Positions 12,826 through 61,000 of a stretch of DNA of 64,000 nt are shown here, piece by piece; position 1 is the stretch's first letter; the number at the start of each line of letters is the position of its first letter. The notes under the pieces are model-generated. The model did not search any database, was not told where the DNA came from, and saw only the letters and a program-made list of their open reading frames with translations. Made by a program: the position numbers and the translations under genes. This stretch comes from Macrostomum lignano (Eukaryota). The DNA lies in the NCBI GenBank assembly GCA_002269645.1, contig NIVC01001471.1, forward strand, positions 124,001 through 188,000. The letters are read 5' to 3'.

Positions 12826-13098
12826 TTACACCTGTCCTAATGGGCAGATGTGCAACCGACAGCTCAGCCGCAGCTATTGCGCGGAGCATCTGAAGGCTGC
12901 GTACGGCTGTTCAGTCCAAGGACTGGGGGGTCGCCACACGCACACGCCCTCAATAACCCCAGCTAATGCTGGCACTCATTTTACAGCTGGGTTAACTGAA
13001 GCAATGCAGAGTTAAGTGTCTTGCTCAAGGACACAAATTGATCCGAGTGGGATCGGGAATCGAACCCCCGACCTTCCAGTCGTGAGTCGGCAACCCGT
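12826..13098 (-). mobile_element. tRNA-derived SINE, 5'-truncated copy of the family at 32345-32640
   Basis: Reverse complement aligns by eye with 32345-32640: B-box GGTTCGATTC, TGTGTCCTTGAGCAAGACACTT, CCCCCAGTCCTTGGACTGAACAGCCGTACGCAGCCTTCAGATG. Confidence 0.85.
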
Positions 13099-13416: not shown

Positions 13417-15202
<1,786 letters not shown>

Positions 15203-32344: not shown

Positions 32345-32640
32345 CTAGAGGTTGTAGCCTAGTGGTCAGAGCGTCGGACTCACGACTCAAAAGTCGGGGG
32401 TTCGATTCTCGACCCAATCGGAACAATTTGTGTCCTTGAGCAAGACACTTTGCATTGCTTCAGTTCACCCAGCTATAAAATGGGCGCCAGCATTCGCTGG
32501 GATAATAAGAAGATGGGGTGTGTGGCAATGGCGACCCCCAGTCCTTGGACTGAACAGCCGTACGCAGCCTTCAGATGCGCCGCGCAATAGCTGCGACTGA
32601 GCTGTCGGTAGCGCATCTGTCCATTAGGGGAGGGTGTAAT
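32345..32640 (+). mobile_element. Full-length tRNA-derived SINE with a CORE(MIR)-like central domain
   Basis: A-box TAGCCTAGTGG, B-box GGTTCGATTC, then TGTGTCCTTGAGCAAGACACTT...CAGCTATAAAATGGG (cf. MIR core GTGACCTTGGGCAAGTCACTT...CTGTAAAATGGG), AT-rich tail; second copy at 12826-13098. Confidence 0.8.
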
Positions 32641-33127
32641 AAAAAATAATATTAATTAAAAATATTATTCAGGACCTCGTGTCTCACCTCATGACAACAC
32701 GGGCGAGTTAAAAATAAGCTAAAGGCTGAGATCCAGTTCGACTGCCGTGATGTGGTAAGCAGCTTGGATACAAACCTAAGATGTGTGACGTGATTGCAAT
32801 TGGCTGTGCTGTTGTTGGCTTGCACACACCTTGCAGACAGATTTCCATACTATGATGAGCTCCTGCATCAATGGCATGCATCTAAAGCCAAAAAATGTGA
32901 CTCTCTTCTCGTCACTGATCCCTGATTCGCTTCACATTCTGCAAACAAGATGCGTTATTCCAATCCGAAAGCAAAAACATTCAGAGACGAATTGGAGAAC
33001 GGCTAGAATGAGAGCAGAACTGAAGCCCCATTGGCTGTGCAGTGGAGATTTAAGCCACCCACAAGGAAAAAATTCAATTCATCAAGCAACACTTGGAGCG
33101 CTCAGAACCATTTTGAACACTGCGGCG

Positions 33128-34009
33128 ATGTCGACACCAACGATGCTCCTCCTCGCCCTGCTGAGCCTCGCCTGCCTGCGCAGCCTGCAGTCCTGCCAGC
33201 CGCCCTACCAGTCCGTGTCCGGCTTCTGCCTGCTCGTGAACACCACAGCCGCAGTCGGCTGGTGCCAGGCAGCTCGTCTGTGCCAGGCCGTCGGAGGCGA
33301 GCTGGTGATGGAGCCGGCCGCCATCCGGGCAGCTGCTCCGTTCACCACGGTGAACTTGTGGGTCGGCGTCACCGACATGCTGGAGGAGCGGCTCACCAGC
33401 AGGTGAAGCAGTCAACATCGAGTTTCGAGTGTTTCTGCACAAAGCAAAATTTATGCCACCTTTTGCTAAAATTCGGAAAATCTCACGCAACTGTTCATTA
33501 GCCTGCGATGCGTACATATACTAATTTTCGAGATTATAGCTAAAATATTATAACTGATCTGATATTCTCATCTTCTCAGAAGCGGCTGGCGCATGGCCAA
33601 TGGAAGCGAGTTTGTTGCCCCAAACTCTGACTGGGGATCTGGCTACCCAAACAACAATGACCACTCGGACGACATGCTGGCTCTAACAAGTGGTCTCCTG
33701 GCCGACTTGATCTCATCAAACGCCATCGGCTTCGTCTGCCAGCCCGTGGCGACGCCGAACAGCGGAACCTTCCGTCGGACCAGCTTCCTGAAGCTGGGTG
33801 ACATCACGCCCTACTACTGCTACACGGAGGTGCAGTCGGTGCAGCGCAGGCTGCTCTGCATTCGCCAGTGCGCTGCCCGCTGGGAGTGTCGGGCGGCTCT
33901 GTTCAACCGGGCCGAGTCTCGCTGCCGCATGCTGGACTTCGCCGACGCGAGCGCGGGCGACGCCATCGAGAAGAGCGGCGCTTGGGAGAAGTTCGTCAAG
34001 GCCTACTGA
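33128..34009 (+). CDS. Secreted C-type-lectin-like + PAN/apple domain protein, copy 1 (234 aa); exons 33128-33402, 33580-34009
   Basis: Signal peptide (MLLLALLSLACL); CTLD motifs C..GFCLLV...W..A..LC...GG.L, LWVG, W..G.PN, FVC; C-terminal C..QC....C.A..FN....CRML PAN-like pattern. Phase-2 GT-AG intron. Confidence 0.8.
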
Positions 34010-35379
34010 GAGAAACAGCGATTGAAGAGACAAGATGGCCACTGGAATTAACAAAGTCTTGACCCCTTGATAGAACAATTTTAACCAAAAATACGCTCGT
34101 AGCGGAAACTCTGCTTGAGTGCAGCGTCACATAAAGCAAAATAAAGAGAGCTTAAAGGCGGACGGCCGCATTCACAACTGCTAGAAGCCTTTTTTCTTTC
34201 CTTTCTTCACCAAAAATTATAACTTTCTTGCATCAACCCTGAAAGTAAAAAGCTTGTTGATGTTTCTGTCCTCAAATTAATCTTTCTTCCACAATTAGGG
34301 CTGAGTCAGAAACATTTACGAATGGTGTAATATCAAGCCTTTGCCGAGGAAGGAAAGCACTTTGGGATCCCTTATTTGATGTTAAATTACTCATATAAAT
34401 TCCGATTATTTTCTACGTACCTCGTAATTTCTAGCTCGTAATTTTTTACGAGCGTAATACCCCAATTAGAACACATTGGCTTGTGAAGCATACTCCCTGA
34501 TTATATCATGGACCACGGTATACAGTGGTCCTTGATTTATGTGGCAACTCTCTCTATTTTCAAAATTTTACAAATCCACCATACCGCTTAAAGAAATTTT
34601 TTTCTGGAATTTTTTCGATGTGCAGGACTCAGGAGCCTCGAAGTCTGAAACTTTCGTTATACCCGGGTAGCAACGCAGAGCGCTACTCAAGTTTCGCAGT
34701 AAGCGGATGAGGAGTTTGCTTTTCTATTTTTTTAGGAAGATGAGGCGCATGTTTCCCTTACACCATTTTTTTCCGAAACGTTTCCAGACTCAAGCGATGG
34801 GAATGAGGCAAAGGCTTTGTCGTGCCCGGTTTCCTTCCTATTCAAACTAATCACAAAAACATTTTGAGCTCACATTGATTGGAAGAAAAAAACATTGATT
34901 TCCTCGCATTGGGTGTGGAAGGCGATGTTGCGGAGTTAACCACACAGTCAGCGATCTGAGAGACTTTTTCAAGACAGGCGCGTTTCACTTCCGGTAATAA
35001 AATGTTATTAGACTTTCGATGTCAAAGATTTTTTCTTTTGGCTATCCCAAGGACTGCTAAAGTAAGGCAGCAATCTTTGTAATCCTGAGGCTTGTACAAA
35101 ATCAAAATTTTTGCTTATTTCGGACCTTTGCAGACTACGAGCGTGTCAATCTACAATTGACGAACGCTCTAAGCCTCTGTTAATATATTTTGCCAGCCAA
35201 CGCTCATTAACAATGGTAAGCAAATGAGAGGCTTAAAGCGTTTGTCAATGTACTTTGTGGCCGCGATCATCATCACAGTCTGAAACCCCCTATATAATCT
35301 ACCATTAACTTAGTCCATTTTCTCTTTTTGGATCTTGATTTCATTCCTATCATCGTTTATGTCTGCAGCTGTGCGAGTG

Positions 35380-36471: not shown

Positions 36472-37504
36472 TGCCATAGACTACATTTAAGCCCGCTTGC
36501 AGGAGTCACACTTACTTTAATGCAAATTAGCGGGCAGTTAATATAGGATTTTTCGTTTCATAAAATTGTCATTTGATTTCGTCCATAGAAGTTGGCAGCG
36601 CAGCCATAGAGTCTATGGCAATAAAGTGCGCTGTTTTCCGATTGAATTCATAACTTTGCCACTTCATTTCGACTTGGCGCGCTGAGTGACTCAAACACTG
36701 CCAGAGGGGGCTGGGATATCAGTGGGTGAATATCTATGGCCAAACCTCTCATAGAAATGAAAAGCCTATATGAACGTGTCCTCTTCTTGGGCAACAGTCA
36801 CCTTCCTTGTGTGCCTAAAAATGGCTGCATACGCGTCCATTGGAAACGTATAAACGCGGCCAATCGTATTCAACTGCGAACTCTGCCACCGTACTCTCCA
36901 TTTCTTAACGCCGCGGAGCAGGCACACAGTTGTCTCAAGGCTTTGCTTAAACGCCAGCTAGCAACACCTGAGCTTCAACAGGAACTTAGCTATCCGCCTG
37001 ATGGCATCAACCCAACGGAGTGGAGACTCATGGTGCTTTTCCGCTGTGGCTACGTTGCACTAGAGGAAATTTCCGCCGCTGCGGAACGACATGTGATGCG
37101 GTTTCTGCCCCTGTGCATCAATGAGCAGCAGATAATGTGAAATTTGTAGCTTGTTGCAGCGAAAGAGCATTAAATTTGGCGGACATAACTGATTTCACTG
37201 TTGCAACTGCCTACTTCCTCATGTGACTTAATACACAGCTTTCTGTTTTTAACAGTTCTTTCTGTACTGGACAAGCGCATCGACTTTTCTGTTGCCTTTC
37301 TACTGGGTATGTCGAAATGAAGTGGCAAAGTTATGAATTCAATTGGAAAACAGCGCACTTTATTGCCATAGACTCTATGGCCGCGCTGCCAACTTCTATG
37401 GACGAAATCAAATGACAATTTTATGAAATCAAACGAAAAATCCTATATCATTAACTGCCCGCTAATTTTGTCCCACTTTGTCAAGGACACAAATGTCTAT
37501 GGCA
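36472..37504 (+). mobile_element. Internally deleted IS630/Tc1-type element: long imperfect inverted repeats around a transposase C-terminal fragment (~36840-37140)
   Basis: ~150-bp inverted arms 36524-36673 / 37311-37468 with outer TGCCATAGAC / GTCTATGGCA; internal ORF carries LPPYSPFLNAAE (YSPxLNPIE motif). No TSD identified. Confidence 0.7.
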
Positions 37505-38349: not shown

Positions 38350-41300
38350 GTGCAGATAAATGCCGCTACCTCCTCGTGGTGAGAGCGGAGAGCCGCGCTT
38401 AACTGCTGCGGCGGCCAAATGCGGCAGGACCAAGCGAGGGCAGCGGAGCGCGCGTCGGCGAGTCGAACGCCGTCGCGAGCGAAACTGGCGAGGTCGGCAA
38501 CGTGGCGCCGCCCGCCGAGCTGCTGCTGCGCTGGCCCAATTGGATCTTCCGGGTGGCGCCGGGGACCATGAGGCTCACCAGCACCGAGCCCCAGCCGCAA
38601 CCACAGGGCACGCTTCGGGTCGGGACGCTGAACTGCCGCACTCTCAAGGCCACATGGCGGAGAGGGCTGCTGGCGAGGCTAGCGCTCGATCTCAGCTGTG
38701 GTGTCATCGCACTACAGTAGGTGTCTATCAGAGCCGACCCCGGACTTCACTGTGAGGACCTGGGCGCCGGTTGGACACTCTGGTACACCTCAGGGGATGA
38801 GCGAGGCCGTGGAGGAATTGGAGCGCTGATCGGACCGAGCCTGCAGCAGAGCTGTCGCTGCGTCTCCCTGTCTTCTCGGCTGCTTCGGGTCGACGTCCGG
38901 CTTCGCAGCCGGAACGCCCGCCTGTTCTGCGCGTACGCGCCGCCTGCTACCCGCTCCGATGAGGCTCAGGCCTTCTTCGAGCAACTCTCGGTGCGGGTGG
39001 AGGAGATGGCGCAACGTGACACAGTGGTCATTCTCGGAGACCTGAACGCAGTTTTGCGTAGGTCCGAGCGATCGCTGTTCGTGACAGCGCGCGAGAACGG
39101 CAACACCGGAGGACCTCCTGGAGAGACAGGACATGGTGTCGGCCAACACCAGATTCCGCAAGTCACCGGGCAGGCTCGCGACCTTCGTGGGCTGCAAGCG
39201 GAGGCGGCGGAACGCGCGCGGCCGGAACGCTACGCGGAGGCTGGCACAGCTCGACCACGTGCTTGTGCACTTTCGTGAGCGCCGCCGCGTCACCAACTGC
39301 CGCACCATTACGCCGCTGGCTCTGCGGTCCGACCATCGGCTGCTCATCTGCGACCTTCGGCTTCGGGACCCGCTCTACCGTCCGCCAAAGCGGCCACCGC
39401 GGCGCTACTACCGCGCGCTCAGGGACGCCGAGACGCAACGTCGCTTTGCCGGTGCCTTTGTCACTGCGCTGGGCGACAAGCGTAGAGGAGCCGAGTACGC
39501 GGAGGTGAGCGCTGCAGTTCGAGCCGCTGCGGAGCAAGCAGTCCCGCTGATGCGACCGGCCCAGCGCGGGCAGCCAGTCTGGCAGGACGACCCCGCGATC
39601 GACGAAGCGAGGAAAGATCTGGAGAGGCTCCGTCTGAGTGGGCGGCAAATTCGCGAGGCGGAGGAGGCTCTGGCGGCTGTCTACCTGCAGCGGCAGCAGT
39701 CCGCTGTCGATGACGCCATCCAAGCCGTCTCTGCCGCAGGGCCCGATGCCAGAGGGCGCGTGGCCTGGTCCGTCATCAACACTCTGACGGGGCGAAAGCG
39801 GCGCATCGCGCTCAACCTGGCAGGCGACACTCCGGATGAGCGCAGGAACGAGCTGCGCGAGTTCTTCGCCGCCATTGTCAACGCGCCGCCCCCTCCGCTT
39901 CCAGAAAATCTGAGGCTGCCGCCGGAGACGCCGTTGCCGGCGGAGGAGAGCTTCAACGTTGCCCCAGTCAGCACAGCCGACGTTGTGAAGTTCGCTCGGC
40001 AGTCGCCGGGCGGCAAAGCGCTTGGTCCGGACGAGGTGCCCACCGAGGCGCTGCGGATCCACTGCGTGGCCACTGAGGTCGCCAGAGTGATGAACCGCGC
40101 GCTTTCCGGTGAGGTGGCGCCAAACGAATGGACCACGGCGCACATCGTCGCCATTCCAAAGAAGCTGGGCACCACCAAGCTCGAGGAGCATCGAGGCATC
40201 TGCCTACAGTCCTGCGCCGCGAAGCTGTTCAACCGCATGCTGCTATCGCGGTTACAGCCTGTGCTGGACCCGTACCTGCGGCCTGAGCAGAACGGATTCC
40301 GGCCCCATCGCGGCACAATGACGCAGATCCTGGCTCTTCGGCGAGTCATCGAGGAGGCGCGCATCCGCCAGTTGACCCTGATCCTGATCTTCGTCGATTT
40401 CAGGAAGGCCTTCGACTTGGTCGTGAGGGACGCGCTCCCAGAGGTGCTCCGTGCGTACAACGTGCCAGAGCTGCTGATTTCTGCTGTCATGGCGCTGTAC
40501 CACGGCACGACGGCTGCTGTCTCAACACCGCACGGCCTATCGGATTTCTTCGAGACATCCTCCGGGGTGCTCCAGGGAGATACGCTAGCGCCGTTCCTAT
40601 TTATTCTGGTGCTTGACTGGGTGCTACGGACTGCTCTGCCTTCCAACGACGACGGCTTCCTGCTGCGGCGACGCGTGGGTCGACGCCAACCGGAGAGACG
40701 GCTCAGCGTGCTTGGCTACGCCGATGACCTCGCCCTGCTGTCCTCGACCGTCGAGGGCGCCCAAGGACAGCTGGATAGGCTGGTTGCCGTTGCGGCGAGC
40801 GTCGGCCTGGTGGTCAACACGCAGAAGACCGTCGTGCTATGCGTGCCGGACGACACCGAGGCTGCAATCTTCTGCCGAGGCGCTGACGGACAGGCGAGTG
40901 AGCTTCCAAAATGTCAGCAGTTCGTCTACCTCGGCGGTCTGGTTCCCGACGTCCGCGAGGATCTGCGGCGTCGCCGAGGACTTGCCTGGGCTGCCTTTCG
41001 TTCTATAAGGTCAGTCCTGCAGTCTGAAGCCCTACCGGACCGCCAGAGGGCGGCGCTGTTCCAGGCGGTGATCGAGACCGTCCTGTTATACAACGCCGAT
41101 GGACGCTGACAGACTCGCTCGAGGCTCAAGTCGACGCGGCGCACGCTGGCCTGCTGCGCGCCGCCTTCAAGATCGGCAACGAGCGAGTCACCAACACGGC
41201 GCTCTATCATCGCGCCGGCCTGGCCCGTCCTAGCGATCTGCTGCGCCATCGGCGACTCCAGCTGGCAGGCCACGTCATCCGCGCCGAGGCCTACTGTCCG

Positions 41301-41480
41301 GAGCCGGTGCAGGAGGTGCTGCTACTTACGTTGCAGGCACCCTACCGGCGGGGACAGGCGAGGACTCGGCGCTACGTCGACTGTCTGCTGGCTGACGCCG
41401 GCGCCCCGGAATCTGCCGGCGATGCAGCGCCCAAGCTTCGAAGCGCGCCATCTGACGCTGCTTTTGCGAACTGACAGCGT
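38350..41480 (+). mobile_element. Near-full-length RTE-clade-like non-LTR retrotransposon (APE endonuclease + RT), inactivated
   Basis: APE motifs GTLNCRTL, IALQ*(E to TAG at 38718), CAYAP, ILGDLNA, LDHVLV, SDHR; RT motifs GPDEV, QNGFRP, FVDFRKAFD, GVLQGDTLAPFLF, YADD, FVYLG; frameshifts near 39120 and 41100; the distal frame ends ~41474. Confidence 0.9.
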
Positions 41481-42115
41481 ACTCTGTTGTTTTTGTTGTT
41501 TGTGCAGCAAAGGTGTTAAAAAACGAAACTGACAGTGCCTTGCTCGACACCACAAGCAGGGATGAGTTCACTACACCACGCCCTAAATATTGCTTTCACA
41601 CAGCAGAATGCATTTAATGCATCATAGAGTTCAATCATATTTTATATGCTTCCCCACATCATGAATCCAAAAGTAGATTTATTGTCCGATGTACATTGCA
41701 GATTTCAATGAGACAATATTTGCAGATTGGATTGGAACTGCTAAGATACAAAAAAGTCTTTTAACGCTCAGATCAGTCTGACTGATCTGACTGACTGGTT
41801 GAGATAAATATAGGTTCTTTACCGGCCTTTAGTTATCACAAATTTGACTCGGACAGAGAAGCGTTGTACTAGGGCGGGCCTGGCTGCTGAAGCTGGGTGG
41901 TGAAGAAGCTCATTGCGCCAATGCATTTTCAGCATTTTCGGCCCCAGCTGATCGGGGCCGCGTCAGTGATGCGAAAACCATCGCGAATGCCCACGCTCAA
42001 AAACTCTGAGTCCGAGTCGAAGAACAATACTGGTGTCCAAGCAGCAGTTGACAGTGGCCAACGGCTTCAAAGCGCAGCCACCGAGTCGGCGGCGTGTTCT
42101 GCAGAAGGGCCGTCG

Positions 42116-42360
42116 GCAGGGCGAGCGGCAGGGCGAGCGTCAGGGCGAGCGGCAGGGCGAGCGGCAGGGCGAGCGGCAGGGCGAGCGGCAGGGCGAGCGG
42201 CAGGGCGAGCGGCAGGGCGAGCGGCAGGGCGAGCGGCAGGGCGAGCGGCAGGGCGAGCGGCAGGGCGAGCGGCAGGGCGAGCGGCAGGGCGAGCGGCAGG
42301 GCGAGCGGCAGGGCGAGCGGCAGGGCGAGCGGCAGGGCGAGCGGCAGGGCGAGCGGCAGG
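42116..42360. repeat. 12-bp GC-rich minisatellite (GGCAGGGCGAGC), ~20 copies, next to the mariner TIR
   Basis: Read directly. Confidence 0.95.
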
Positions 42361-42369
42361 ACGACTGTA

Positions 42370-43362
42370 CGGGGTGCTTATTAAGTTCCCGGAAAAGTTC
42401 AGTTCTGGTGGTCGAATCTGCGCGAAATTTTACCTGCAGAAACCGCAGTCTATTAAAACTTCTCAACATAATTTCTATTCAAATCAGAGCACTTTTGCAG
42501 GCGCTGGAACCATGCGTCAAAGCATCCTTTGAGATCAGCTTTGGTGCAGCTGTCCAGCTCAGCTAGCAGCGCAGCAACCAGCTCCTCCCTTGAGTCTTAG
42601 CGCTTCCCCTTCAGATTTTTCTCCATCCTGGGAAAGAGGAAGAAGTCAGCTGGCGCCAGGTCCGGGGAATATTCCGAAATCATCTAAAGAAACTCCTGGG
42701 TCACTCGTTCCCGGTGCGCGGAAGCGTTGTCCTGATGGAGGAAGATGCCTTTTGTCAAGCGTCTTCGGCCGCTGTTGTGCGAGCGCCTGCAGAACCTGAG
42801 GCAAGCAGACGGGCCGTATCATTCTTCCGTCACTGTGGCGCCTTGCTGCAGAAGCACTGGCAGCAGGATGCCACTGCGTCGGAAAAAATGACCGCCATCA
42901 GTGTGCCGACGCTGCGCTCGCGATGAAATTGGAGAGGAGCATCTTCCTCGTTTGTGACCCACTGCCGATTTTGCTCTTGGATCTCTAGGTTGAAGAAGTT
43001 GAAGCAGACCCAGGTTTCGTCGCCAGAGAGGTTGTTATCCTTTGAGCGGCCTCCGTCAAACCTGGGTGCCATGAGGTCGCAAACTCAACGCGGGCTCCCA
43101 TCTGGTCAGCGCTTAGCAGGTGGGACACCCAGCGAGCGGACAGCTTCCTCATGCCGAGGTGCTAGTGCAGGATCTCAATGATGGTGAAATCTGACACCCT
43201 GACGAGCTGCTCCAACTAGCGAATCGTCACTCGCCGATCTTCGCTCACATAGCGTCGAACAGCAGCAATGACTCACGCAGCGTCTGAAGGCAGGCGGCCA
43301 CAGAGCTGCCCAGCCGAAACTGTACCAGAATCGCCACTCGCCTATCGCGGTCAGTCGAAATC
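42370..43362 (-). mobile_element. Degenerate mariner element (DD34D type) retaining one TIR; 5' end lost at the foldback element
   Basis: Minus-strand translation shows MRKLSARWVSHLL (WVPHEL), GDETWV, FLHQDNASAH, YSPDLAPADFFLFP, ...RNYVEKF* with internal stops; terminus TA|CGGGGTGCTTATTAAGTTCCCGG at 42368-42392. Confidence 0.9.
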
Positions 43363-46300
43363 AGTAGAAATTTTTATAAGAAACCAGGCATTTTAGCAAA
43401 AATAAACCTTCAAACCACATAAAATTGAATAAAAAGCAGACATTTTCAATTATAAACCGCAAGTATTTTAATAGAAAAGTAAGCAAACAAGGCACAAAAC
43501 CAGCAAATTTTACCTTTTTCATTTTAATGTTACTGATAAGGTAGAGAGTAGAAACTTGTGAGCTGTATGGAGTTAGAAAGTATTAGCCAATATGTATCGT
43601 ATGAATTATTAGTTCAGTACCAGCCATTGGTCAAGCGAGCATTTATGAAGTTATTACGAGTGATGAAGGGATAGAGAGCTATATACAGGAAGACAGTATC
43701 CTTCTAAACCACCACGAACAGATTGCTAATAGAGATAAGCTTTGTCGGTAGGCAGTATGAGTAAGCGAAGGCGGGGTAAATACTTTTCCACATGCCAGAC
43801 AGAACAGTATTGTGCTAGGATTTCTCTCGAAATCGCGGTACGCTTAGTTTTTATCACACCATCCAGATGCGTCAACTGGTCAACAGTAGTCATTTATATG
43901 TTATTAGACCTTACAAACCCAGGTCAGGTAAATATTACAAAGAGTATATTGCGTACACACGCCAACTCCGAATACCAAGCCATACTAGTCTACTTGCAGT
44001 GCTCCTGGAGGGAAGGGACGGTCAAGAGTTACACACCAAGAATGCATTCACACAAAGAGTACACCACTCGAGCCCCGTCCATGCGCCCCGATATGTATGA
44101 CGCAGGCAACCCTCCCGACATGTATGCCGCAGGCGACCCTCCCGACATGTACCCAACATGTATGTCGCAGGCGACCCTACCGACATGTACCCCGACATGT
44201 ACACCCTACCATATGGCACTCGAGCCACAGGTGCCAAGCGGCCCCCCGAAATGTACGCCGCGGGCGCCCCCCTCCCGAGCCGAAGGTACACTCTTCCAAT
44301 ATGAGTGTACACTCTCCCAATACAAGTGTACACTCTCCCAATATGAGTGTACACTCTCCCGATATGAGTGTACATCGATTTGTAGTCAACAATACCTATT
44401 AACACAAAATTAGGCTAGTGAAAACTACTTATAGTAGGTGAAATTGCGTATATTTACGTAAAAAGTAAGCAAAACACATATTAATCACATCAGTAGGTGT
44501 AAATATCAGGGCATAATGCATATTACGAAACATATAGGTGTACGGACATATAGAATTAAGCATATGGGCAGCAAAAAACACACAATGTAGGTGCATTTTA
44601 TCGATATTTTGGCAGAAAAGTAGGTGAAATAGACAAAATAGTAGGTATAATACACAGAACCTACTCATTAGTGTAGTAGGCGCTTGTAGATGCTAGTATT
44701 TTATCAAACCCTCAAACGGTTGATAATGCATGACTAAATTTAGATACCGTCTATGGTAATTCGTCAGAAACTTTGGTCTTAAATGTTCTAAGTTACAGCG
44801 AAGACTTCTCAGTTTTTCATTTTAAGCCGTCTTCGCTTGCCTGCCTTAAACATGACCGCTACGCATCTTATCAATTGGTCTCATCTGCCGGTTGATAGTC
44901 TCGATGGCGTTTCATCCAGCGAATACTCATTCATTGCGGAGCTGAGCAGTGACAATCACCGAGATGACAATCAGCTGGAGGACTTTATTAACTTCATTAC
45001 CGATCATTCACGATCTGACGATGAACTGCTTGGTGTCGATCTGCCGGAATGTGAAGAGGATGGAGCTTCTGTTGCTACTGATGTCATGGACAAGGCCGAG
45101 GTGGATTCTCTACCAAGATCGACCAAGGAGCAAATGTTCCTTTATGGCAAAGCGTTTGCCAGCTACATGAGTGACTTGGGTCATCCTGTTGAAAGTCTCA
45201 AAACAATGGAGCCCAGTAGCCTCAACGAGCACCTGCGGTTCTACTACTTTCGGCTTTCTAAACCGAATGGAGAGTCGTACTCGCCATCTAGCTTGGTCTG
45301 CATTCGGGCCGGCATCCAGCGATTTTTTCACTTCATTATCAAGCGTGAACTCAACTATCTTCACGGATTGTCATTTCTCTGGCTTTTACGTAACTTACGT
45401 ACTTTTTACGTAAATATACGCAATTTCACCTACTATAAGTAGTTTTCACTAGCCTAATTTTGTGTTAATAGGTATTGTTGACTACAAATCGATGTACACT
45501 CATATCGGGAGAGTGTACACTCATATTGGGAGAGTGTACACTTGTATTGGGAGAGTGTACACTCATATTGGAAGAGTGTACCTTCGGCTCGGGAGAGGGG
45601 CGCCCGCGGCGTACATTTCGGGGGGCCGCTTGGCACCTGTGGCTCGAGTGCCATATGGTAGGGTGTACATGTCGGGGTACATGTCGGTAGGGTCGCCTGC
45701 GACATACATGTTGGGTACATGTCGGGAGGGTCGCCTGCGGCATACATGTCGGGAGGGTTGCCTGCGTCATACATATCGGGGCGCATGGACGGGGCTCGAG
45801 TGGTGTACTCTTTGTGTGAATGCATTCTTGGTGTGTAACTCTTGACCGTCCCTTCCCTCCAGGAGCACTGCAAGTAGACTAGTATGGCTTGGTATTCGGA
45901 GTTGGCGTGTGTACGCAATATACTCTTTGTAATATTTACCTGACCTGGGTTTGTAAGGTCTAATAACATATAAATGACTACTGTTGACCAGTTGACGCAT
46001 CTGGATGGTGTGATAAAAACTAAACGTACCGCGATTTCGAGAGAAATCCTAGCACAATACTGTTCTGTCTGGCATGTGGAAAAGTATTTACCCCGCCTTC
46101 GCTTACTCATACTGCCTACCGACAAAGCTTATCTCTATTAGCAATCTGTTCGTGGTGGTTTAGAAGGATACTGTCTTCCTGTATATAGCTCTCTATCCCT
46201 TCATCACTCGTAATAACTTATAAATGCTCGCTTGACCAATGGCTGGTACTGAACTAATAATTCATACGATACATATTGGCTAATACTTTCTAACTCCATA

Positions 46301-46503
46301 CAGCTCACAAGTTTCTACTCTCTACCTTATCAGTAACATTAAAATGAAAAAGGTAAAATTTGCTGGTTTTGTGCCTTGTTTGCTTACTTTTCTATTAAAA
46401 TACTTGCGGTTTATAATTGAAAATGTCTGCTTTTTATTCAATTTTATGTGGTTTGAAGGTTTATTTTTGCTAAAATGCCTGGTTTCTTATAAAAATTTCT
46501 ACT
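43363..46503. mobile_element. 3.1-kb foldback structure: inverted arms 43363-44467 and 45400-46503 around a 932-bp spacer
   Basis: Arms start AGTAGAAATTTTT and end AAAAATTTCTACT; I found only ~3 differences (2 substitutions, 1 indel); each arm has internal 27-bp and 21-bp tandem arrays. Confidence 0.95.
44837..45442 (+). pseudogene. N-terminal/core-binding part of a Crypton-type tyrosine recombinase (ZMYM2-4/QRICH1/KCTD1/KIAA1958-like), truncated before the catalytic domain
   Basis: SLPRSTK...KAFASY...LKTMEPSSLNEHLRFYYFRLSKPNGESYSPSSLVCIRAGIQRFF matches the Crypton pattern N.T...F..W...L...L..FY...R...G..YS..SL..IR..L.R; the ORF runs into the right arm and stops. Confidence 0.75.
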
Positions 46504-47467
46504 CTCGACAATGATTGTGTCAGCTATTTCATTAAAATAACCTACTTTTTGAATAAAACGTTGTATTTAAGCCCCTAGTTTTTTTTCAAAACATAATGGA
46601 AACCCTCACAACGCCCTTGGAACCTCCTCAAGCAGCTTACATAGAGCATGCAGACCCCGAAACCCCCTCTAGTGTGCCCTGATTTCAGCGGTCTGACGGT
46701 TAAGATCTTTTTTTTTTACACTATATTTTCCTTCATACAGCAATACAGGAGGGTTTGGAAGAGTGAGTCTGGCGGGAGAGGGGGCTTGTGGGGTGATGAG
46801 GATGCGTACACACAGTTTAGCCTGTTTTAGCCTACCTTTTGGGTTAATATACTTACTATTATTACTACCATTATACCTACTATGTACATACTATTATACT
46901 ACCCACTATTAAATATGCTGCACTAAAACCAACTTTTGATAATAGTAATAGAATGTTCTGCATTAAAAATGTGAATAATGATCGTCAAATTGCTAAACAA
47001 TGCAAATATCTATAGGACAATGGATGTAAGTATACATGTACTCACACAACGGCTCAGTCTTGTCAGTGCGAAAAAGTGATGCGATGCAAATGTTAATATT
47101 TAGATTCTTGAGTAAAAATAAGAAACTTTTTTAAATCGAGCGAGATTGCTCCCGAAATAAGGTAAAATTAGGAAAGTTAGACGTCATTTTTTCAGTGACA
47201 AAACCATCGAACATGATATTTATGAAACGATTGGTATGCGATTTGTAAATGTTTGAATTGAAATTTCTCTTGTTACATGAAGTAACTTTTTAGTTCAATG
47301 CTAAGTCGAACAGAGCCGTGGACGAATCAGGCCGTTTAAATGGAACAATGGGAGATGAAGTGAAGCCCCGTTGGCTGTTGAGAGCAGCTATTTAACAGCT
47401 ATCGCCTTCGAAAGGCGTCGCTTTAAGCACTGGAACCCAAAGAACCGCGATTTCATCAATTGTATCG

Positions 47468-48423
47468 ATGTCGACTCCGAGGGTGCTCCTCCTCTCCCTG
47501 CTGAGCCTCGCCTGCCTGCGCAGCCTGCAGTCCTGCCAGCCGCCCTACCAGTCCGTGTCCGGCTTCTGCCTGCTCCTGAACACCACAGCCGCAGTCGGCT
47601 GGTGCCAGGCAGCTCGTCTGTGCCAGGCCGTCGGAGGCGAGCTGGTGATGGAACCGGCCGCCATCCGGGCAGCTGCGCCGTTCACCACGGACTCGGTGAA
47701 CTTGTGGGTCGGCGTCACCGACATGCTGAAGGAGCGGTTCACTAGCAGGTCGGAATTCCAGCAAAGTTCTAGAAAATTAATGCGTTGAAAACTGCCCATG
47801 CTAATCAATTAACAAAAAAATTGCAATTGCTATACCACTTCTTGTCGTGCACTGAATTCTGAAGGACGCAACTTGAAGGAGAATTGAAAATAACGATCAG
47901 AAACATCGAAAACCAACTCTGCAAACTGATAATAAGCCTTCTAGTGGTTCGTCGTTCAAGTTTCTCTTTTAATTGAAATTTTCATCTTCTCAGGAGCGGC
48001 TGGCGGATGACCAATGGAAGCAAGTTTGTTGCCCCAAACTCTGACTGGGGATCTGGCTACCCAAACAACTATGACCACTCGGATGACATGCTGGCTCTAA
48101 AAAACGGTTTGCTTCTCGACTTTGTCTCATCCAATCTGGTTGGCTTTGTCTGCCAGCCCGTGGCGACGCCGAACAGCGGAACCTTCCGTCGGACCAGCTT
48201 CCTGCAGCTGGGCGACATCACGCCCTACTACTGCTACACGGAGGTGCAGTCGGTGCAGCCCAGGCTGCTCTGCGTTCGCCAGTGCGCTGCCCGCTGGGAG
48301 TGTCGGGCGGCTCTGTTCAACCGGGCCGAGTCTCGCTGCCGCATGCTGGACTTCGCCGACGCGAGCGCGGGCGACGCCATCGAGAAGAGCGGCGCTTGGG
48401 AGAAGTTCGTCAAGGTCTACTGA
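47468..48423 (+). CDS. Secreted C-type-lectin-like + PAN/apple domain protein, copy 2 (236 aa); exons 47468-47748, 47994-48423
   Basis: Paralogue of 33128-34009 with the same phase-2 intron position and a 2-aa (DS) insertion. Confidence 0.8.
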
Positions 48424-49955
48424 GTTGTGAGACTCAAAAGTTATGAATTGGAAAATGTCAATACACTTTACTGAGAAAGACGTCTGCAATCAGAAGTAAG
48501 CAGCCTAACATGTTCTCGAATGAGTTCACCCCTCGCTGAAGCAATGTGCAAATTTCACGCAAATAAAGAAGAAATCTTTATGCAATAACATCTTCTGCAT
48601 GAAGTCATGTTGCGTATCTGTGGATTTTAACAGCAGATTTGGAAAAAACCTTTGAGTGTATTTTTCGCTTCGTGGAAAGCGTGTCACCCAATTAAAACAT
48701 TCGTTTTCAGTCAATTTAGTCTTTTCCGGGCTCATAGAACTAGAATTTCCGACATGCATTTGAAACCAAGCAAGTGTTTTTCCGAAACTTTGCGATTGAA
48801 GCATCGTTTTTAATGGCATTGGTAGTGACTGCTTCTGCTTTTGAGTATGCTTTTCTTGTGTCTCAGTCTCCCTCCCCGGTTAATGAGCTAATTAAAGTAA
48901 GTCATCTTTCTTAAAATTTCTGTGGGAAATTTCTCTGATGTACCTAAAGGCAAAGGTTTATGCATACAACGGCATCAGAATTTTTTATGTTTCATATCTC
49001 AGGGTGTATAAAAAGTTGAAGAGCTTTCTTCAGTTTTAGAGACAGTAGCAAAACCTGCTTTAATTACCTTCAGGGCGTTTTTTGAACCAAGGCGCACTTA
49101 CTGCTACCCGACATTGTGGAGATTGGTGGAAATGGGGGTAATCACTCTTCCTATGTGCAATAGGAACTTATACTAAAGTTATACTACTGGGGTCCTTTAA
49201 TTGGCCTCTAATGAGGTTTTTCGTTTTTTTTTCTTTAGCTGCACGTGCAAATTGAAGCTTTATAGTCTAGCACGTCCTAAAACAAAGTTTTTTTCGTTTG
49301 AGTTCTCCATAGAAAATAGAAATAGGTGCGCAACTCACTACTGAGCTGAGCAATTTGCGTTGTATTTCTAAGATACAATACGATTCCCAAAGAAAACAAT
49401 ATTATGAACGTATTTATCGTTTGATGTAGAAGATATCGATATAACAAAAGCAATGATCACTGCAGCATACAAAAAACTGACTAAAAATTCACATATGTAG
49501 AAATTAAGGAAGTCAGTGCATACATCTTTATAATATGGCTGGCGAATGCCAGCTAAAAAGGCAGTTTTGTCATTTTAATTGACTGAGTAGACAGCCAAAA
49601 CTCGCTTGAAATTGGACTCTAGCAGGATAGACGCAGCTGAATTTATCAGAAGAAACGCTGAACATGCTCAAAATAAAAATTAAAATTTGATAGATTTTTG
49701 GGTCGGCTATGGCTCTTGTAATGGCAAGAACTTTCTATGCTTTTGTTGTCTTTTTAACTGTGCCCTCAGTTAAAAGTATTTTCTTATATTTTATTTATAA
49801 CATTATTATTCTCTTTATTCGTAATGATGAAACGTAATGATGAAACGTTACTAATTAATTATGGTATTTACTAAGCATCTGTATTTATTATAAATAACGT
49901 GTGCCAGCCCATCCTTATCTATACATTAACTACGACATGCAAACTACGAGCTATA

Positions 49956-54431: not shown

Positions 54432-57400
54432 CCATAGTGCAGAAGGACGGGTGTACGACGGAAATTTCCGTCGTACATTGAGGTTGGTTGTCGTACATGT
54501 CGTACATCGTTCATTTTTGCAAGGGCTCTTTGTCGTACATGTCGTACCGTCGTTGGCCACACTGTCACTGTCGTACATCTCTGACTAGAAAGCTATATGC
54601 ATAGGCATTTAAAAATACAATTTCGTTTTCATAATTAAATTAAATTTATTCAAAGTTCTTTTTACGAGGCACAAATAAAATATAATCTTGGCATACTTAA
54701 TAATAATTTTTTATTATGTGGCACCAAATTTCACATTTTTATATTCAAGGCCACACAAATGTGCATCCGTTGTTTTAATCTTAACCTTGTTTATTTCTTT
54801 TTTGAAATGCGTATCGTTGTATCGTGTTACTGGGAATTGAATTGTGAATGTGAATTAATTCATAATCATCTGATCTTGTAATTCTCGTCCTCCGGTCAGT
54901 CTCGTCTCTCGTGATCGTGATGTGATCTAAGATAAGATCTGATCTGACTAATGTCTTTTGTCTTATCCCTTATAACTTTTACTTTTCTATAATCTATGGC
55001 TATGCACTCTGCACTGCACTAGCACTATATACTATACTACAAGCTACAACTAAAAGTAACTTTTAAGTTTTCTTAATTTGTTGCAAAACTTAAACTAGCA
55101 ATTTGTAATTTTTCAACTTTGACAAGTAAATTTATTAGTAGTTAGTACGAGTAACAAGTTGAGTAATTAATTAAGTTGAGACTGTTGAGTTGAGTTGCAT
55201 GTTGCATTGTTGCAGTTGACTCATTGACTTTGACTGTTGACAAATGACAAGGTCAACTGTCAAGTGACACTTGTGACAGTTTGTTGTTTGAGACTTTGAG
55301 TTAGTGAAAGTGACTAGTGACTGACTGACTGGTCTGTCTGACTGACTGACTCGTGTCTCGTGTCTGTGTCTGTCTGGACATCTGGTGATTCTTTCAAGTT
55401 TATTTTTTAAACATTTTATCACTTTTACCTTCATAAATTAGTTCTAGAACTTCTAGTGTTCTGTTCTAATTCTAGTTCTTAACTTAACTTCTTGTTCTTA
55501 ATCTTAGTTGCAAGTTTTTATTTTAAAAGTTCAAGTTGTCAGTTGTGTAATTTCACAATTTCAGTAATTGAGTTGACATTAGACAAGTTTATAAAATTAT
55601 CTTATCACTTTCTTTTAATAATTAGTAATTAATTAATTAAATGCATTTTTTATTTGTCAAATTTGACTTTACTTGACAAGTTGAAGTTGACAGTTGAGTA
55701 CTTGAGTATTGAGTAAAGACATAGTAATTAAGTTGACAGCTATGGCTTATTGCTTGGCTTGAAACCAACAAATATTTCTTACGAAATAACAAGTAGAAGT
55801 AGCTAATAGCCATCTAGCCAAGAGACACCAAGTTTTGCTTCGTTTCATGAAAGAAAAGAAGTGAATATATATAAATTAGGGCCTACTGCAAGTCTGCAAC
55901 TAATTTGAGACAAAACTTCAGGTGCTTGGCAGCAACTTTAGCAAATACAACTTCCAAGTTGACTTGACATTGACAAGTGTATAAATTTATCTTATTACCT
56001 TTACTTTTAGTCTTTTAGTAATTCTAAATTCATAGCAAATTTTGCTATTGTATTGTATTGTAAGTTGACTAGATTGAGTAATTGAGTTGTATAAAATTAT
56101 GCAATTGATTATATTTGGTAGAGTTGAGTAGAACATTTGGTAGAGCTAGATTGTAGAATGGTACAGTATAGTATATGAAATTATTTTATAAAAAAAACAA
56201 AATATATTGAAATGTGCATTAATTATATCCTATTACTAAATGTCTAATCTTTATTTCCTAAATTTCTATAAGTATAATTATAATTATTTATTTAATTTTT
56301 GTAAACAAAACCATATTTTTATTCAACTGATAACTAGTTTGGTTTATGCTTACTTATTGATTAGATTTGGTCATAACTAATAATACTAAATTAAATGCTG
56401 ATTGCCAAAAAAATTAACTTGTCTTTCAGCTAAATTCAGCTATTCAGCATTTGCTTTTTGATTTATTGTGCCAAAATTAATCTCTATAATGTCTCGTAGC
56501 AGTAGCACATCAAGTTCTGGCTCTGAAGAAAATCAGTCTGAGACAGAGACACCACTAGCTGCAGCTTTGCAAGCTAGTATCCAGGACCAGGCTGACCAGG
56601 CAGAGCCAGAGGCAGTAGTAGAGAAGGCGAAGGCTGCTGAGTGTGCTTGGGCCCATATGCCAATCATGCAACAGGCACAGCGGCAACGCCAACAGCAACA
56701 GGCTAATGTGCAAGTACAAGCAAAATCAAAGCGTCCACTGAGTTTGTCTCATGCAGCGTCTTCATCTGCACAAACTGAAGAGCCACCAACTAAGAAGCCT
56801 CGCGGAACTGTGTGTGACCCACATTACTGTGTGGATTGCCTTCAGCGAGGGCTTCCACTGTCCAACTGCCGCATTTATCGAAACAATGGTAGTAGCAGAA
56901 AAACTCATCGGAGTCGCTGGCACAAAGAAGACCCAGCCAATAAGATTTTAACATATTGCAGACCTGACCATGCTGATGTTCGCGACCTAATTGCTGCCAG
57001 GCCTGCCAATGAGAATGAGAAGCAGGTAAAAAAACGCATCACAAAGGCCATGGTCAGCCATGAGGTGCTGGAGGTTGAAAGTGCCAGTGATGAAGAGTCA
57101 CCTGAACGTCCTGAAGTTCCAATGACCACTGAGCCTGAGGCAGAGCAGCAGCAGTCTGAGGGACCAAAGACAAATCTGGTAGTAAACATTGAAGTACTGG
57201 AATCATCCGCCGTTGACCAAAGATCCAGCTCATTTGTTAGGCAGCTTGCTGATGCTTCACCTATCCTTCCCAGTCCTGCTGAGGCTGCATCTACAGCATC
57301 ATCAAGCACGTCAGGTCGGGATCTTTTGGCAATTGTCACTGGGCTGGAAATTAAAATGGCGGAGGCAGCCCGACAACTTGCCCTACTTCCGATTATACTA

Positions 57401-60400
57401 AATGTTGTTCGGGACTTGGCGCTGTCACAGGCTACCTCCAGCTCAAACTCTCGGGGACAAAACTTACCAAAAGTGCCGCCAATTGTGGCTAGCAACATGG
57501 CCGAGCTCCTGGAGAACGAGATGCTCGCCACAGCACCTTGCGGTGAGGACACAATTTTATACTGTGTCCCGTGCTACAACGTTTTAATGGAAGGCACGGC
57601 CTTCTCGCCAAAGTTGACTGTTGCGGAGAGGCACAGCACTTTGTAAGTCCATTGTATGTACTTTTATCTAACAGGCAATAAGACAATCCAGTTGGCCTTT
57701 TCCATTTATTTATTATAAACTTTCATTTCTCTAACTTCTTATAGAAACCCCAAGTCGATGGGCACGCTTGCACGAGGGCAGCTCATTACAAAGCTGGAAA
57801 TGACTGAGATCCTTGCGTGTGGCGAGGCATTCTCCCGGCTTCGTTATAGGATAGTGAAACATCTCTCTGGTATCGAGGCTGTCGGCCATGTGAAAGCTAT
57901 GAAGAAGTATGCGGACCGCAAGATTGAAGAGAAGCGCGTCTCAGGAACTGTTCGGCGCCTTTTGCGTTGCTCTGTTGCCAATATCGAATCAGCGTCAGCT
58001 AGTAAGCACTATGAGACGTTCGTGAGCATGCTTTATCGGTCGGACGCTGAAGTTGGCCAGCGGGGCCACGGCCGGTATGTACCATATTATGTGGTTTGTA
58101 TCTGTATGCCATTAGCTAAGCTATGGTTATTTTGTACGCTATTTGTTAATTTACCACCCACTATGCATCCAACTAGGGAGTTTAACAAGGAGTTGTGGTC
58201 GTTGTTTGAGGTCACCGCTGACAAGTATACGGCTGAGTTCCTGCAGACCCCACTGCCGTCCACCGGATGTCCTCCCTGCTACGCCATTGCTTGCGACAAA
58301 AGCACACCAGGTCGCATCACTAACCAAGCTGTTATGGTGTTGGCCAGGTAAGTAGGGAGGAAGAAGGAAAAGTAATGTACATTAGGAGTATCCGCCACTT
58401 AAATATTACTTTTACTACCTCCTTAAAACGGATAACCCCTAACAGGTGCGAGACTGGTGACGCCGTTGCTATCCCAGGTGGCGCCCCGGCCGTTTATTCC
58501 AAAGAGATGGACGGCAGCGGCCCCGTTCTGGTGCAGCGGCTTTTTCAAGGTCTGGCGAACTTTGATTTGCCCATTGATCGTCTTGTGGGCGTCATTGCCG
58601 ACGGGCAATATCAAACTGCGCCTTTTAAAACGGCAATATTTGAGAAGCTGAAGGAGGCCGGAGCCGACTATGAGATCCCAATTAACTGGGACCCGGCCCA
58701 CTTTATAAACCTGGCCGTGACTAACGTGCGCGATAGTGACGACGGAGAGGCGTTGCAGGATTTTATTGACAGGGCAAACCTGTTTCCGCATCTTTTTGGC
58801 CACGGGCGTGGCCGTTCGGCTTTGGAAGTAAGTATGCAACCTGAATGTCTAACTGAATAGTTTACCGAGGGTTTTAGATATACGTTTGCTATAAAACTAC
58901 TCCAAATTCTTTGTTTGTAAAAAAACAGATTGCTTCCGAGGACCATGCCGGAGCAATTTCATCATTTGCCTCGCAGCGCTTTACCAGTTCAGCCATGAAC
59001 CAATGGCAGACCATCTTTCGCTGCTACGGCGATCTGCATGCCGCATTTCGAGCCGAGAAACCACGAGTCAGAGATAACGACCCACAGCCGTACATAATGT
59101 TCGGATTTGATTTTGTGTGCGACTTGTTGGGCTACCTGGATCTCTTTGCGCCAATCAAGTAAGTTGATTTATATGCCTTGTGGGTAGTAAAATTACTATG
59201 GGATCAACTTTTTGATTACCTACTTACTCCAAACACATAACACTTGCACAGAGCTCTTATGGAGATTGCGCAGAATCTTCAGCTGCCCCACTGGAAAGTG
59301 TCTACCTTATGGCCATTGGTAGCTGAGTTCCTCCATGTCCATGCAGAGCAGTTTCGTAGTGAGGACTACCCCACGCTGCATGAGCACATCGACAATCTGC
59401 ACGTTGGTGGCACATTTGATGGCGTGACTCTGCTGGACGGCTGGCTCAAAGTAAAAAAGCCGGTTGCTGGCTCTGCCTCTGACCAGGATCAGTGGCGCGC
59501 TCGAGACATGGAGGTAAGCTTGTGCAATCATTATATTATGTACTCTGCCAAAGTTACCATATTCTCCTTTGTGCTTCATTATTCAGCTCCATCCTTCTTC
59601 CTCCTTCCTCAGGACATTGCACGTGATACACAGAAGCTTGCCGGGGCACTTCACCGCAGCTTCGTTGCTCGCATTCAACGCTGCTGCGACCCGAGCACCT
59701 CTGATTGTGCCTCCTTCGATGCAGCTGCCATCATCCGTGCCATTGCATGCAGGGACCCTGAAGTTGCAGCAGAAGAGTTTGCAGACCAGTGCGCTCCCGC
59801 CTTTAAGCGGCTTGTGACCGAGGCAGTCAAGCATAAGCACCTGGCTCATCTGAAAGTTCCCATGGCCCGAAGGTGAGCTCCTTCACAATCAAAACTATAA
59901 ATGCACTGGTACTATAACTAGTGTGAGGCTGGAAATCACATATTTCAAGACCACTTTGCTACAGAAAAATGTAACGAAATCGAATTGTATTTAATTTTAT
60001 TTTTTGTCCACTAAACTTAGGTATGCTGCGAACTTTGTGGACACTATACGCCACGTCATTTTCACGGGTGAAGGCCGCAGTAGCTGGCTGGTGCCTTCCA
60101 TCAACGGGCCACTGACGGATTTAAAAGTAGCAGCACCCACTTTGGCACGTCAGTTATTGCTGCATCTATCGGGTTCGACAGCAGGTGGTGAATTTTCATC
60201 TGTTGTGGTGGACGAAGCAGCAGTTTATGCGTCTTTCTATGCCGACCCAGACGTTTTCCAGCGAGCCGGCCCTGCAACATGTGCACTACTTGATTTTGCA
60301 CTACACCGAGGTGGCACTGGTGAGTTGCAAATTCCAGTTGCTATCTACAAATTAACTAATGTCACCTTGGGCAAGTCAGTCAGATTTGATCAGAATTTCA

Positions 60401-61000
60401 TCTACATATTTTTCCGCCTTTTTCTTCCAGAAGCGATTGTCGAGAGCTTCTACTCGACTATGCGGTCGCAACAGCAACAGGGAGGCCAAACCAACGACAC
60501 CCTTCAGCTTCGCGCTAAGTTAGCTTGGTTGCTACCACCCATGGGCGGCGATGCATGCGAAGAATTTCTCGACGACTCTGCGAAACTTTTTTTTAAAGGC
60601 GACAAAAGCCGTGGGATTCGTCCACATTGGAGTCCGTTTTTTGCTGCCAAAACTAAGGACGCCATCGGCAAGGTGCTGCAGAGGCGCGCAGCAGCTGTTT
60701 CCCGTGTGCCATTCATCGGCCGTCGGAAGCAGAAGCCCAAAGACGGCGACAATAATGCCAATTGATAAATTCATTTAATTGAATCATTCATAATTAATAT
60801 TACTTCAATTACTTGTAAACTTGTTATTACCACTTACAACTTATTATTACTCTTTGTCTGGGTCGGGAGTATGTGGGTTTCTGCATTGTAGTTTGTCGTA
60901 CAAAAAAAAATTACTTAGTTCACTTGTGTCGTACTGTCGTACAGCAGGCTAAAACTGAAATTTGCCTTCCGTCGTACACAGAAATCCTTCTGCACCATGG
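54432..61000 (+). mobile_element. Full-length hAT-superfamily DNA transposon, 6,569 bp
   Basis: Perfect 8-bp TSD TCTTCGAG (54424-54431, 61001-61008); TIRs CCATAGTGCAGAAGGA..GTGTACGACGGAA / TTCCGTCGTACAC..TCCTTCTGCACCATGG; subterminal GTCGTAC motifs (6 plus 1 inverted on the left, 4 on the right); internal transposase gene. Confidence 0.95.
56489..60765 (+). CDS. hAT transposase, ~1,140 aa, nine exons: 56489-57642, 57745-58074, 58177-58347, 58446-58827, 58929-59158, 59252-59513, 59613-59872, 60021-60319, 60431-60765
   Basis: Eight GT-AG introns (102,102,98,101,93,99,148,111 nt) give a 3,423-nt stop-free CDS. Motifs: CxxC..H...H finger (CVDC..HRSRWH), second finger (YCVPC..KH..H), catalytic D (ACDKST), D (IADGQY), WDPAH (CxxH-equivalent), SQRF (RW-equivalent), E in GTEAIVESFYSTM. 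Confidence 0.88.

What the first reader, a model, noticed from the sequence alone, without database searches (positions are those of the whole stretch)
43363..46503. Giant foldback with 1.1-kb inverted arms around a truncated Crypton-type tyrosine recombinase
The arms are ~99.7% identical by my count (about 3 differences in 1.1 kb), start AGTAG and end CTACT, and contain internal 27-bp and 21-bp arrays. The spacer encodes only the core-binding half of a Crypton/DUF3504-like recombinase, and its ORF runs into the right arm. Described Cryptons are not characterised by kb-scale TIRs, whereas AG...CT ends and long repeat-bearing TIRs are Polinton/Maverick features. Either this is a double-left-end derivative of a Crypton made by template switching, or it is the deletion relic of a larger long-TIR element that uses a tyrosine recombinase, which would be the novel case. 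It could also transcribe a very long hairpin RNA.
Basis: partly seen in the sequence, partly recalled or inferred. Interest (0 to 1): 0.75.

Follow-up and report, generated by a model that had tools for sequence, protein, structure and literature searches.

The report
Local foldback around a broken Crypton
The 1.1-kb inverted repeat is real, but it is likely a one-off copying accident in a pile of decayed animal transposons (a repeat, a deleted Crypton-type recombinase gene and a cut mariner), not the two ends of a new long-ended mobile element.

Summary
The arms are real: 43363-44467 and 45400-46503, 1102 of 1105 columns identical. AGTAG/CTACT are not element ends. Contigs of public runs carry the arm on past 43363 in letters that mirror 46504 onward, and the left arm abuts a 5'-cut mariner.

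An intact 495-aa parent recombinase exists (P0001; Cre-like predicted fold, DUF3504/CryptonA-like relatives). The window copy lost residues 192-477 by an internal deletion at a 6-bp microhomology, not by running into the arm.

The arm belongs to a repeat roughly 9-16 times deeper than the recombinase gene in three runs. It shows no 2:1 drop at the arm's inner edge and is not joined to the gene in contigs of two runs. Both arms share letters missing from listed contigs, and the inner junction has templated filler.

Best reading (0.6): one inferred two-switch template-switching event duplicated the arm. Relatives in metagenome contigs look like compact 1.8-2.1-kb units; no long inverted repeats were seen, though most contigs are short. 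No genome or long reads were available, so native long ends (0.1) and an assembly chimera (0.1) remain open.

The parts
42370..43362 (-). Decayed Tc1/mariner copy; its 5' end and first codons are missing at the junction with the left arm
   Evidence: HTH_Tnp_Tc3_2 E=1.3e-6, 29 bits, under the 31.5 cut-off, read through with X; Transposase_1 E=0.14; DETW, HQDNA and YSPDLAP motifs visible (motif names recalled); multi-copy in 4 runs
43363..44467 (+). Left arm: part of an abundant non-coding repeat family, starting at an internal position; inferred to be the copied arm
44087..44201 (+). 27/38-bp GC-rich array inside the arm (mirror 45666-45780)
44286..44374 (+). 21-bp array, 4.2 copies (mirror 45493-45581)
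44468..44709 (+). Single-copy continuation of the same repeat family, with AGTAGGT motifs; in contigs of 3 runs it goes on into sequence other than the recombinase gene
   Evidence: tables 7 and 8; motif positions
44704..44717 (+). Junction between repeat and recombinase cassette: the same 6-mer twice with 2 bases between
   Evidence: sequence; contig ends at 44709 and starts at 44712 in X4, X12, X7; no bridging contig in X4 or X7 by depth sum
44712..45384 (+). Remnant of a Crypton-type element: 5' leader, parent residues 1-191 (probable start M24 at 44852), then residues 478-488 out of frame
   Evidence: 2 differences in 2244 aligned letters to listed contigs
45350..45355 (+). 6-bp microhomology at the internal deletion that removed residues 192-477 (about 860 nt), including every catalytic residue
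   Evidence: parent contigs align up to 45355 from the 5' side and from 45350 on the 3' side
45385..45399 (+). 15-nt filler at the inner junction; with 45384 it holds a 10-nt copy of sequence beside the arm's inner end, centred on a palindrome
   Evidence: folds back on the arm start, 2 of 200 shuffles as stable
45400..46503 (-). Right arm, inferred to be the original copy
46504..46720 (-). Outward continuation of the repeat; 46504-46521 shown by loose-end letters, up to about 46720 inferred from a 217-letter overhang; true end not found
   Evidence: tables 7 and 8

Best explanation
The feature is a near-perfect 1.1-kb inverted repeat around a deleted Crypton-type recombinase gene, and it likely arose at this one locus when repair synthesis switched template twice and copied part of a neighbouring repeat backwards. 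Shown: three kinds of sequence meet here (cut mariner, abundant repeat, recombinase remnant); the repeat runs on past the right arm; the gene has an internal deletion; the inner junction has filler copied from beside the break. Inferred: the original order was mariner, lost DNA, then repeat plus recombinase cassette pointing leftwards. Synthesis left the mariner at 43362, joined the opposite strand inside the repeat (46503), copied arm, inner part and cassette to 45384, then re-primed at the palindrome near 44453-44467 and resumed. That one event would duplicate the arm, invert the spacer and delete the mariner 5' end and the cassette 3' end. The intact parent is predicted to be a compact (about 1.8 kb) Crypton that moves by tyrosine-recombinase excision and integration (the model proposed for Cryptons, not shown experimentally per PMC13565253). 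The window copy cannot encode an active enzyme.
For: Arm continues outward in contigs of 3 of 4 runs as listed. No 2:1 fall across the arm's inner edge: bins 44200-44299 versus 44600-44699 read 1022/779, 8183/7262, 189/250, 13/28 (table 2), and contigs X2 record 13 and X7 record 28 cross 44467. Both arms carry the same letter at 14 of the 15 arm positions listed as variant, 4 of them with the window's letter absent from all laid contigs of all 4 runs. Arm-to-arm difference is 0.27% against 2.2% arm-to-contig. Bin 44700-44799 is fully explained by two unjoined contigs in X4 (163.02 v 163) and X7 (91.05 v 91). Arm depth is 9-16 times ORF depth in X7, X12, X4. Templated filler is of the kind described for foldback repair in yeast (PMC11724301, abstract). 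P0001's contig is 1802 nt; relatives show core-to-core spacings of 1752, 1827 and 2092 nt.
Against: None of the window's four junctions is shown in a listed contig (tables were cut: 243 loose ends and 1358 pieces not shown), and the chimeric protein is not in the protein collection. Contig depth is not copy number and contigs drop rare variants; the contig-based ratio across 44467 is 1.89 in X12. The outer arm is 2.3-3 times deeper than the inner path in X2, X4 and X7, which a family with real inverted ends could also give. A diverged variant of the inner region has about the depth of the ORF in X7 (66.8 v 61.8) and X12 (688 v 632), so the intact gene may follow a relative of this repeat. Long-TIR elements also homogenise and extend their arms (Galileo, PMC3573991 passages).
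Confidence: 0.6

Rival explanations
1. The arms are native inverted ends of an unrelated foldback-type DNA transposon family (Galileo-, FB- or Sola3-like; names recalled) into which a Crypton inserted at 44710. Later deletions trimmed the left outer end and the right inner end, and conversion made the arms alike.
For: Repeat-bearing, AT-rich, multi-copy arms; outer arm 2.3-3 times the inner path; cassette much closer to its family (0.09%) than the arm (2.2%), as for a later insertion; Galileo copies show long internally repetitive TIRs, recruitment of inner sequence and conversion (PMC3573991 passages).
Against: Needs two separate deletions plus conversion; no depth step at 44467; no terminus, target duplication or transposase found in the window.
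Confidence: 0.18
2. The parent is a long-TIR element that moves by its tyrosine recombinase, and the window holds a deletion relic.
For: Depth of a diverged inner variant matches ORF depth in 2 runs; the first bases of the cassette resemble the repeat's own continuation by eye; the parent's right side beyond about 200 nt was never seen.
Against: No contig joins repeat and cassette in X4 or X7. Among loci L001-L020 the longest inverted match between the two flanks is 39 nt, apart from one repeated palindromic end, and 0 of 20 have mirrored contig ends; most of these contigs are too short to hold kilobase arms. Passages of PMC3212892 and PMC13465315 state that Cryptons lack TIRs.
Confidence: 0.1
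3. The inverted duplication is a library, amplification or assembly chimera.
For: No junction-spanning contig is listed; the 44709/44712 link is absent from two runs; chimeric ORF not in the collection.
Against: Needs two switches; the arms differ at 3 sites, with the non-family state once on the left (43843) and apparently once on the right (indel at 43647); templated filler and a microhomology deletion look biological; single-copy links between deep repeats are often dropped from contigs.
Confidence: 0.1

Closest known systems
CryptonA (DUF3504-type tyrosine recombinase transposons; PMC3212892, PMC13465315)
   Same: Single recombinase gene; 24 of 33 aligned relatives match DUF3504 and 25 Phage_integrase; nearest Atlas clusters are DUF3504/integrase from Cnidaria and Mollusca, score 0.97-0.98; R, K, H-x-x-R and Y conserved.
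   Different: P0001 itself does not match DUF3504. The second catalytic His is Gln in 5 of 5 clade members that cover it. Relatives show end hairpins and short inverted repeats, whereas PMC3212892 found no terminal repeats in animal Cryptons. The kilobase arms here appear local.
Galileo / Foldback long-TIR elements (PMC3573991)
   Same: Kilobase inverted arms with internal tandem repeats; inner sequence duplicated in inverted orientation by repair; longest arms in defective copies.
   Different: Galileo uses a P-type DDE transposase, with true termini and 7-bp target duplications; none found here.
Polinton/Maverick
   Same: Only the look of long arms and AG...CT letters (terminal motif recalled, from no call).
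   Different: The letters are not termini; no ORF long enough for a B-family polymerase or capsid lies within the feature.
Tec1/Tec2 and MarCry-1_FO (PMC3212892 passages)
   Same: Known elements that pair a tyrosine recombinase with inverted ends.
   Different: They also carry a DDE transposase that does the moving; here the mariner lies outside the arms and is cut.

Membership tests
CryptonA | Tyrosine recombinase with R-H-R-Y tetrad | tested here: met
   Parent P0001: R260, K294, H382, R385 in 33 of 33 rows, Y417 in 31 of 33 (2 gaps); profile aligns to XerA over H-x-x-R, G-H, Y; model pLDDT 81.4, best match Cre E=2.8e-9. All these residues are deleted in the window copy.
CryptonA | DUF3504-type domain, no C-terminal GCR1_C domain | tested here: inconclusive
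   24 of 33 relatives match DUF3504; P0001 matches only QRICH1 (E=3.9e-5, under cut-off) and Phage_integrase (E=0.0048); no GCR1_C match. No tree with named CryptonA sequences was built.
CryptonA | No long terminal inverted repeats in the parent | tested here: inconclusive
   Contig links and relatives point that way, but the parent's ends were not read.
CryptonA | Short direct repeats at the ends | not testable with these tools
   Parent ends unknown; a 6-mer is repeated at 44704-44717 but the cassette may be cut there.
CryptonA | Dispersed near-identical copies | tested here: inconclusive
   ORF depth about 3.5-5 times that of window-like mariner contigs in 3 runs; a rough figure, insertion sites not seen.
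Polinton/Maverick | AG...CT at true termini with target duplication | tested here: not met
   Sequence continues past both motifs in the family; the flanks do not repeat.
Polinton/Maverick | pPolB, DDE integrase and capsid genes | tested here: not met
   None within the feature; no relatives in viral contigs. A lost interior cannot be excluded.
Foldback-type TIR transposon | Two arms per copy across the family, with defined termini | not testable with these tools
   No genome held; depth is ambiguous.

The most novel reading that the evidence does not exclude
A flatworm lineage of Crypton-type recombinase elements has acquired kilobase, repeat-bearing inverted ends, with a few intact copies driving a larger non-autonomous family; its enzyme uses Gln in place of the second catalytic His.
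Probability: 0.12. Interest if true: 0.7.

Novelty: new member of a known kind. Interest (0 to 1): 0.24.

Why it matters
As read here it is ordinary: a decayed Crypton-type copy caught in a local rearrangement, and a caution that mirror-match edges are not transposon ends. What may be useful is an intact, little-diverged animal Crypton-type recombinase (P0001) with a His-to-Gln variant site, and relatives with visible hairpin ends and tandem pairs. Crypton transposition has not been shown experimentally (PMC13565253 passage), and these give candidate enzymes and sites. If intact copies did carry the long arms, it would be an architecture that my searches did not find described for Cryptons.

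Tried and rejected
Insertion of the element into the mariner with a 1-bp overlap: the flanks seemed to rejoin in frame, but one search shows the right flank belongs to the repeat; dropped. A one-base frameshift in the T run at 45323: replaced by the internal deletion once P0001 was found. Whole genome: none held. Viral contigs: no recombinase relative and no arm match; prokaryote genomes: no arm match. Rfam: 0 matches at E<=0.1 in 42000-48000. The duplicated host gene at 33 kb and 47.5 kb gave no empty site. The similarity of the outer extension to the inner region is marginal (9 of 200 shuffles as good), and the two other pairs tested are at chance (93 and 85 of 200). The small hairpin at the 44710 junction is no more stable than shuffles (97 of 200). 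Hairpin RNA: no RNA holder listed, which says nothing either way. Ten window ORFs: 0 of 10 in the exact-sequence collection. Earlier scan notes: nothing in 4 look-ups.

Full report
Observation. The arms span 43363-44467 and 45400-46503 and match at 1102 of 1105 columns; the differences are an indel at 43647 and substitutions at 43843 and 44271. The 27/38-bp and 21-bp arrays are present. The window has no N and the arm has no third copy in it. The host is an animal, likely a macrostomid flatworm: the closest named relatives of the recombinase are Macrostomum lignano proteins at 46-57% identity. No genome is held, so family structure comes from one laying of Logan contigs of 4 runs, out of 24 listed, on 42400-45399.

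The gene. A 495-aa protein, P0001, from a 1802-nt contig is 100% identical to the query region. The window encodes its residues 1-191 (one stop at residue 3, ahead of the probable start M24 at 44852) and, out of frame, residues 478-488. Parent contigs align up to 45355 from the 5' side and from 45350 on the 3' side, so the deletion sits on a 6-bp microhomology; at 45384 the parent goes on into its last codons and at least 200 nt more (run X2). The catalytic domain was therefore lost by an internal deletion, and a second break lies at 45384. In a 33-row alignment R260, K294, H382 and R385 are invariant, Y417 is in 31 rows (2 gaps), and position 408 is His in 26, Gln in 5 (P0001-P0005) and a gap in 2. 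The model (pLDDT 81.4) matches Cre best, E=2.8e-9, and the profile aligns to XerA. DUF3504 is matched by 24 of 33 rows but not by P0001; the nearest Atlas clusters are DUF3504/integrase. It works like a CryptonA enzyme; membership rests on relatives, not on a tree.

The ends. Left of 43363 lies a decayed mariner on the minus strand, cut within its first codons. Contigs of X12 and X7 continue beyond 43363 with letters that mirror 46504 onward, and X2 record 9 continues for 217 letters at the arm's own depth. So the repeat extends past the right arm, the left arm starts in its middle, and AGTAG/CTACT carry no meaning as termini. The true outer end was not found.

Repeat versus gene. Scaled to window-like mariner contigs, the ORF is about 3.5-5 deep and the outer arm about 32-62 in X7, X4 and X12; in X2, guessed to be RNA, they are equal. 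These are rough figures: the tool warns that depth is not copy number. In three runs one contig stops matching at 44709 and runs into other sequence, while another starts at 44712. Their depths add up to the whole bin in X4 (163.02 v 163) and X7 (91.05 v 91), leaving no bridging contig. Most gene copies are thus not preceded by this repeat allele, and most repeat copies are not followed by the gene. Against this, a variant of the inner region about 7% diverged leaves the window at 44643 with about the ORF's depth in X7 and X12 (not X4), so a related repeat may precede the intact gene.

Are the arms native? Depth does not halve across 44467 in the bins of any of the 4 runs; contig-based ratios are 1.04, 1.10 and 0.98-1.17, but 1.89 in X12. 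Of the 15 arm positions printed as variant (40 of 135 rows were shown), both arms carry the same letter at 14, and at 4 the window's letter is in no laid contig of any run. The arms differ from each other by 0.27%, from listed contigs by 2.2% (40/1818); the inner part differs by 1.5% (10/682) and the cassette by 0.09% (2/2244). These sums use 20 of the 32 listed pieces; 8 mariner pieces and 4 diverged variants were left out. The arms were made alike after this copy drifted from its family. The 15-nt filler at 45385-45399 repeats sequence beside the arm's inner end, around a 10-bp palindrome, and folds back on the arm (2 of 200 shuffles).

Mechanism. One event with two template switches accounts for the cut mariner, the mid-repeat start of the left arm, the longer right arm, the shared letters, the filler and the missing 3' end of the cassette. 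This is inference; short templated foldback insertions at breaks are described in yeast (PMC11724301, abstract only). The alternative, native long ends with two deletions and conversion, has a precedent in Galileo (PMC3573991, passages) and stays open. None of the four junctions appears in a listed contig and the chimeric protein is not in the collection, so an artefact is not excluded.

Relatives. A scan of metagenome contigs gave 31 loci. In the first 20 listed, the longest inverted match between the two flanks is 39 nt, except L012, where a palindromic 130-nt end is repeated; 0 of 20 have mirrored contig ends. Only L005 has over 1.7 kb on both sides, so this test is weak. Eleven of 20 carry a GC-rich hairpin core upstream of the gene (pattern written after seeing the data; L002 and L003 are one family), and 2 of 6 loci checked hold two genes in tandem. 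Core-to-core spacings of 1752-2092 nt fit P0001's 1802-nt contig. The core is absent from the plus strand of 43363-47400.

Literature. PMC3212892 (passages): Cryptons have no TIRs, no terminal repeats were found in animal Cryptons, and Tec1/2 and MarCry pair a recombinase with a DDE enzyme. PMC13465315 (abstract, Background, passages) agrees. PMC5753468 (passages) gives the Polinton gene set. PMC13565253 (passages) says Crypton transposition has not been demonstrated. Searches (listings only, beyond the papers named) showed no long-TIR Crypton. Repbase entries and the supplements of these papers were not read and may describe Crypton ends.

Verdict. A real structure with an ordinary cause most likely: a new Crypton-type family member, broken, inside a probably local inverted duplication. 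Interest 0.24; novel case 0.12 likely, 0.7 if true.

Noticed in passing
L002:153-193 and 1994; L012:43-172 and 2136-2264; L015; L020:447-492 and 2215: Relatives of the recombinase sit in 1.8-2.1-kb units with a hairpin (GC-rich core in 11 of 20 loci) upstream of the gene, often a second hairpin downstream and 13-39-nt inverted repeats; L012 and L015 hold two genes in tandem, L012 with the hairpin repeated between them. These may be the recombination sites, which PMC3212892 did not report for animal Cryptons.
   Followed up: partly
P0001 residue 408 (deleted in the window): The conserved T-G-H motif reads T-G-Q in all 5 flatworm-clade proteins that cover it, against His in 26 of 26 others, while the rest of the active site is invariant.
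   Followed up: partly
window 43947-44643: Contigs show the arm family has several internal layouts: forks at 44021, 44075, 44366-44409 and 44643, and a second diverged copy of the 43947-44075 module.
   Followed up: no
window 56462-60765: Five consecutive plus-strand ORFs of 178-394 aa that look like one interrupted transposon-type gene; no Pfam match at E<=0.05.
   Followed up: partly
window 62749-63752: MULE transposase fragment, E=2.2e-13.
   Followed up: no
window 36524-37468: A 945-bp element with about 150-bp inverted ends, 94% alike.
   Followed up: no
window 33126-34010 and 47466-48424: Two copies of a small two-exon, Cys-rich gene, 93-94% alike in the exons; no Pfam match for the first exon.
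   Followed up: partly
window 38721-41400: Non-LTR retrotransposon with RVT_1, E=1.5e-27, just left of the mariner.
   Followed up: no
window 235-30575: Dense long tandem arrays (53 rows), including 177 copies of a 4-mer at 14030-14736 inside what reads by eye as a G-protein alpha gene.
   Followed up: no
window 12822-13088 and 32377-32643: A 270-bp dispersed repeat, 85% alike, in opposite orientations.
   Followed up: no
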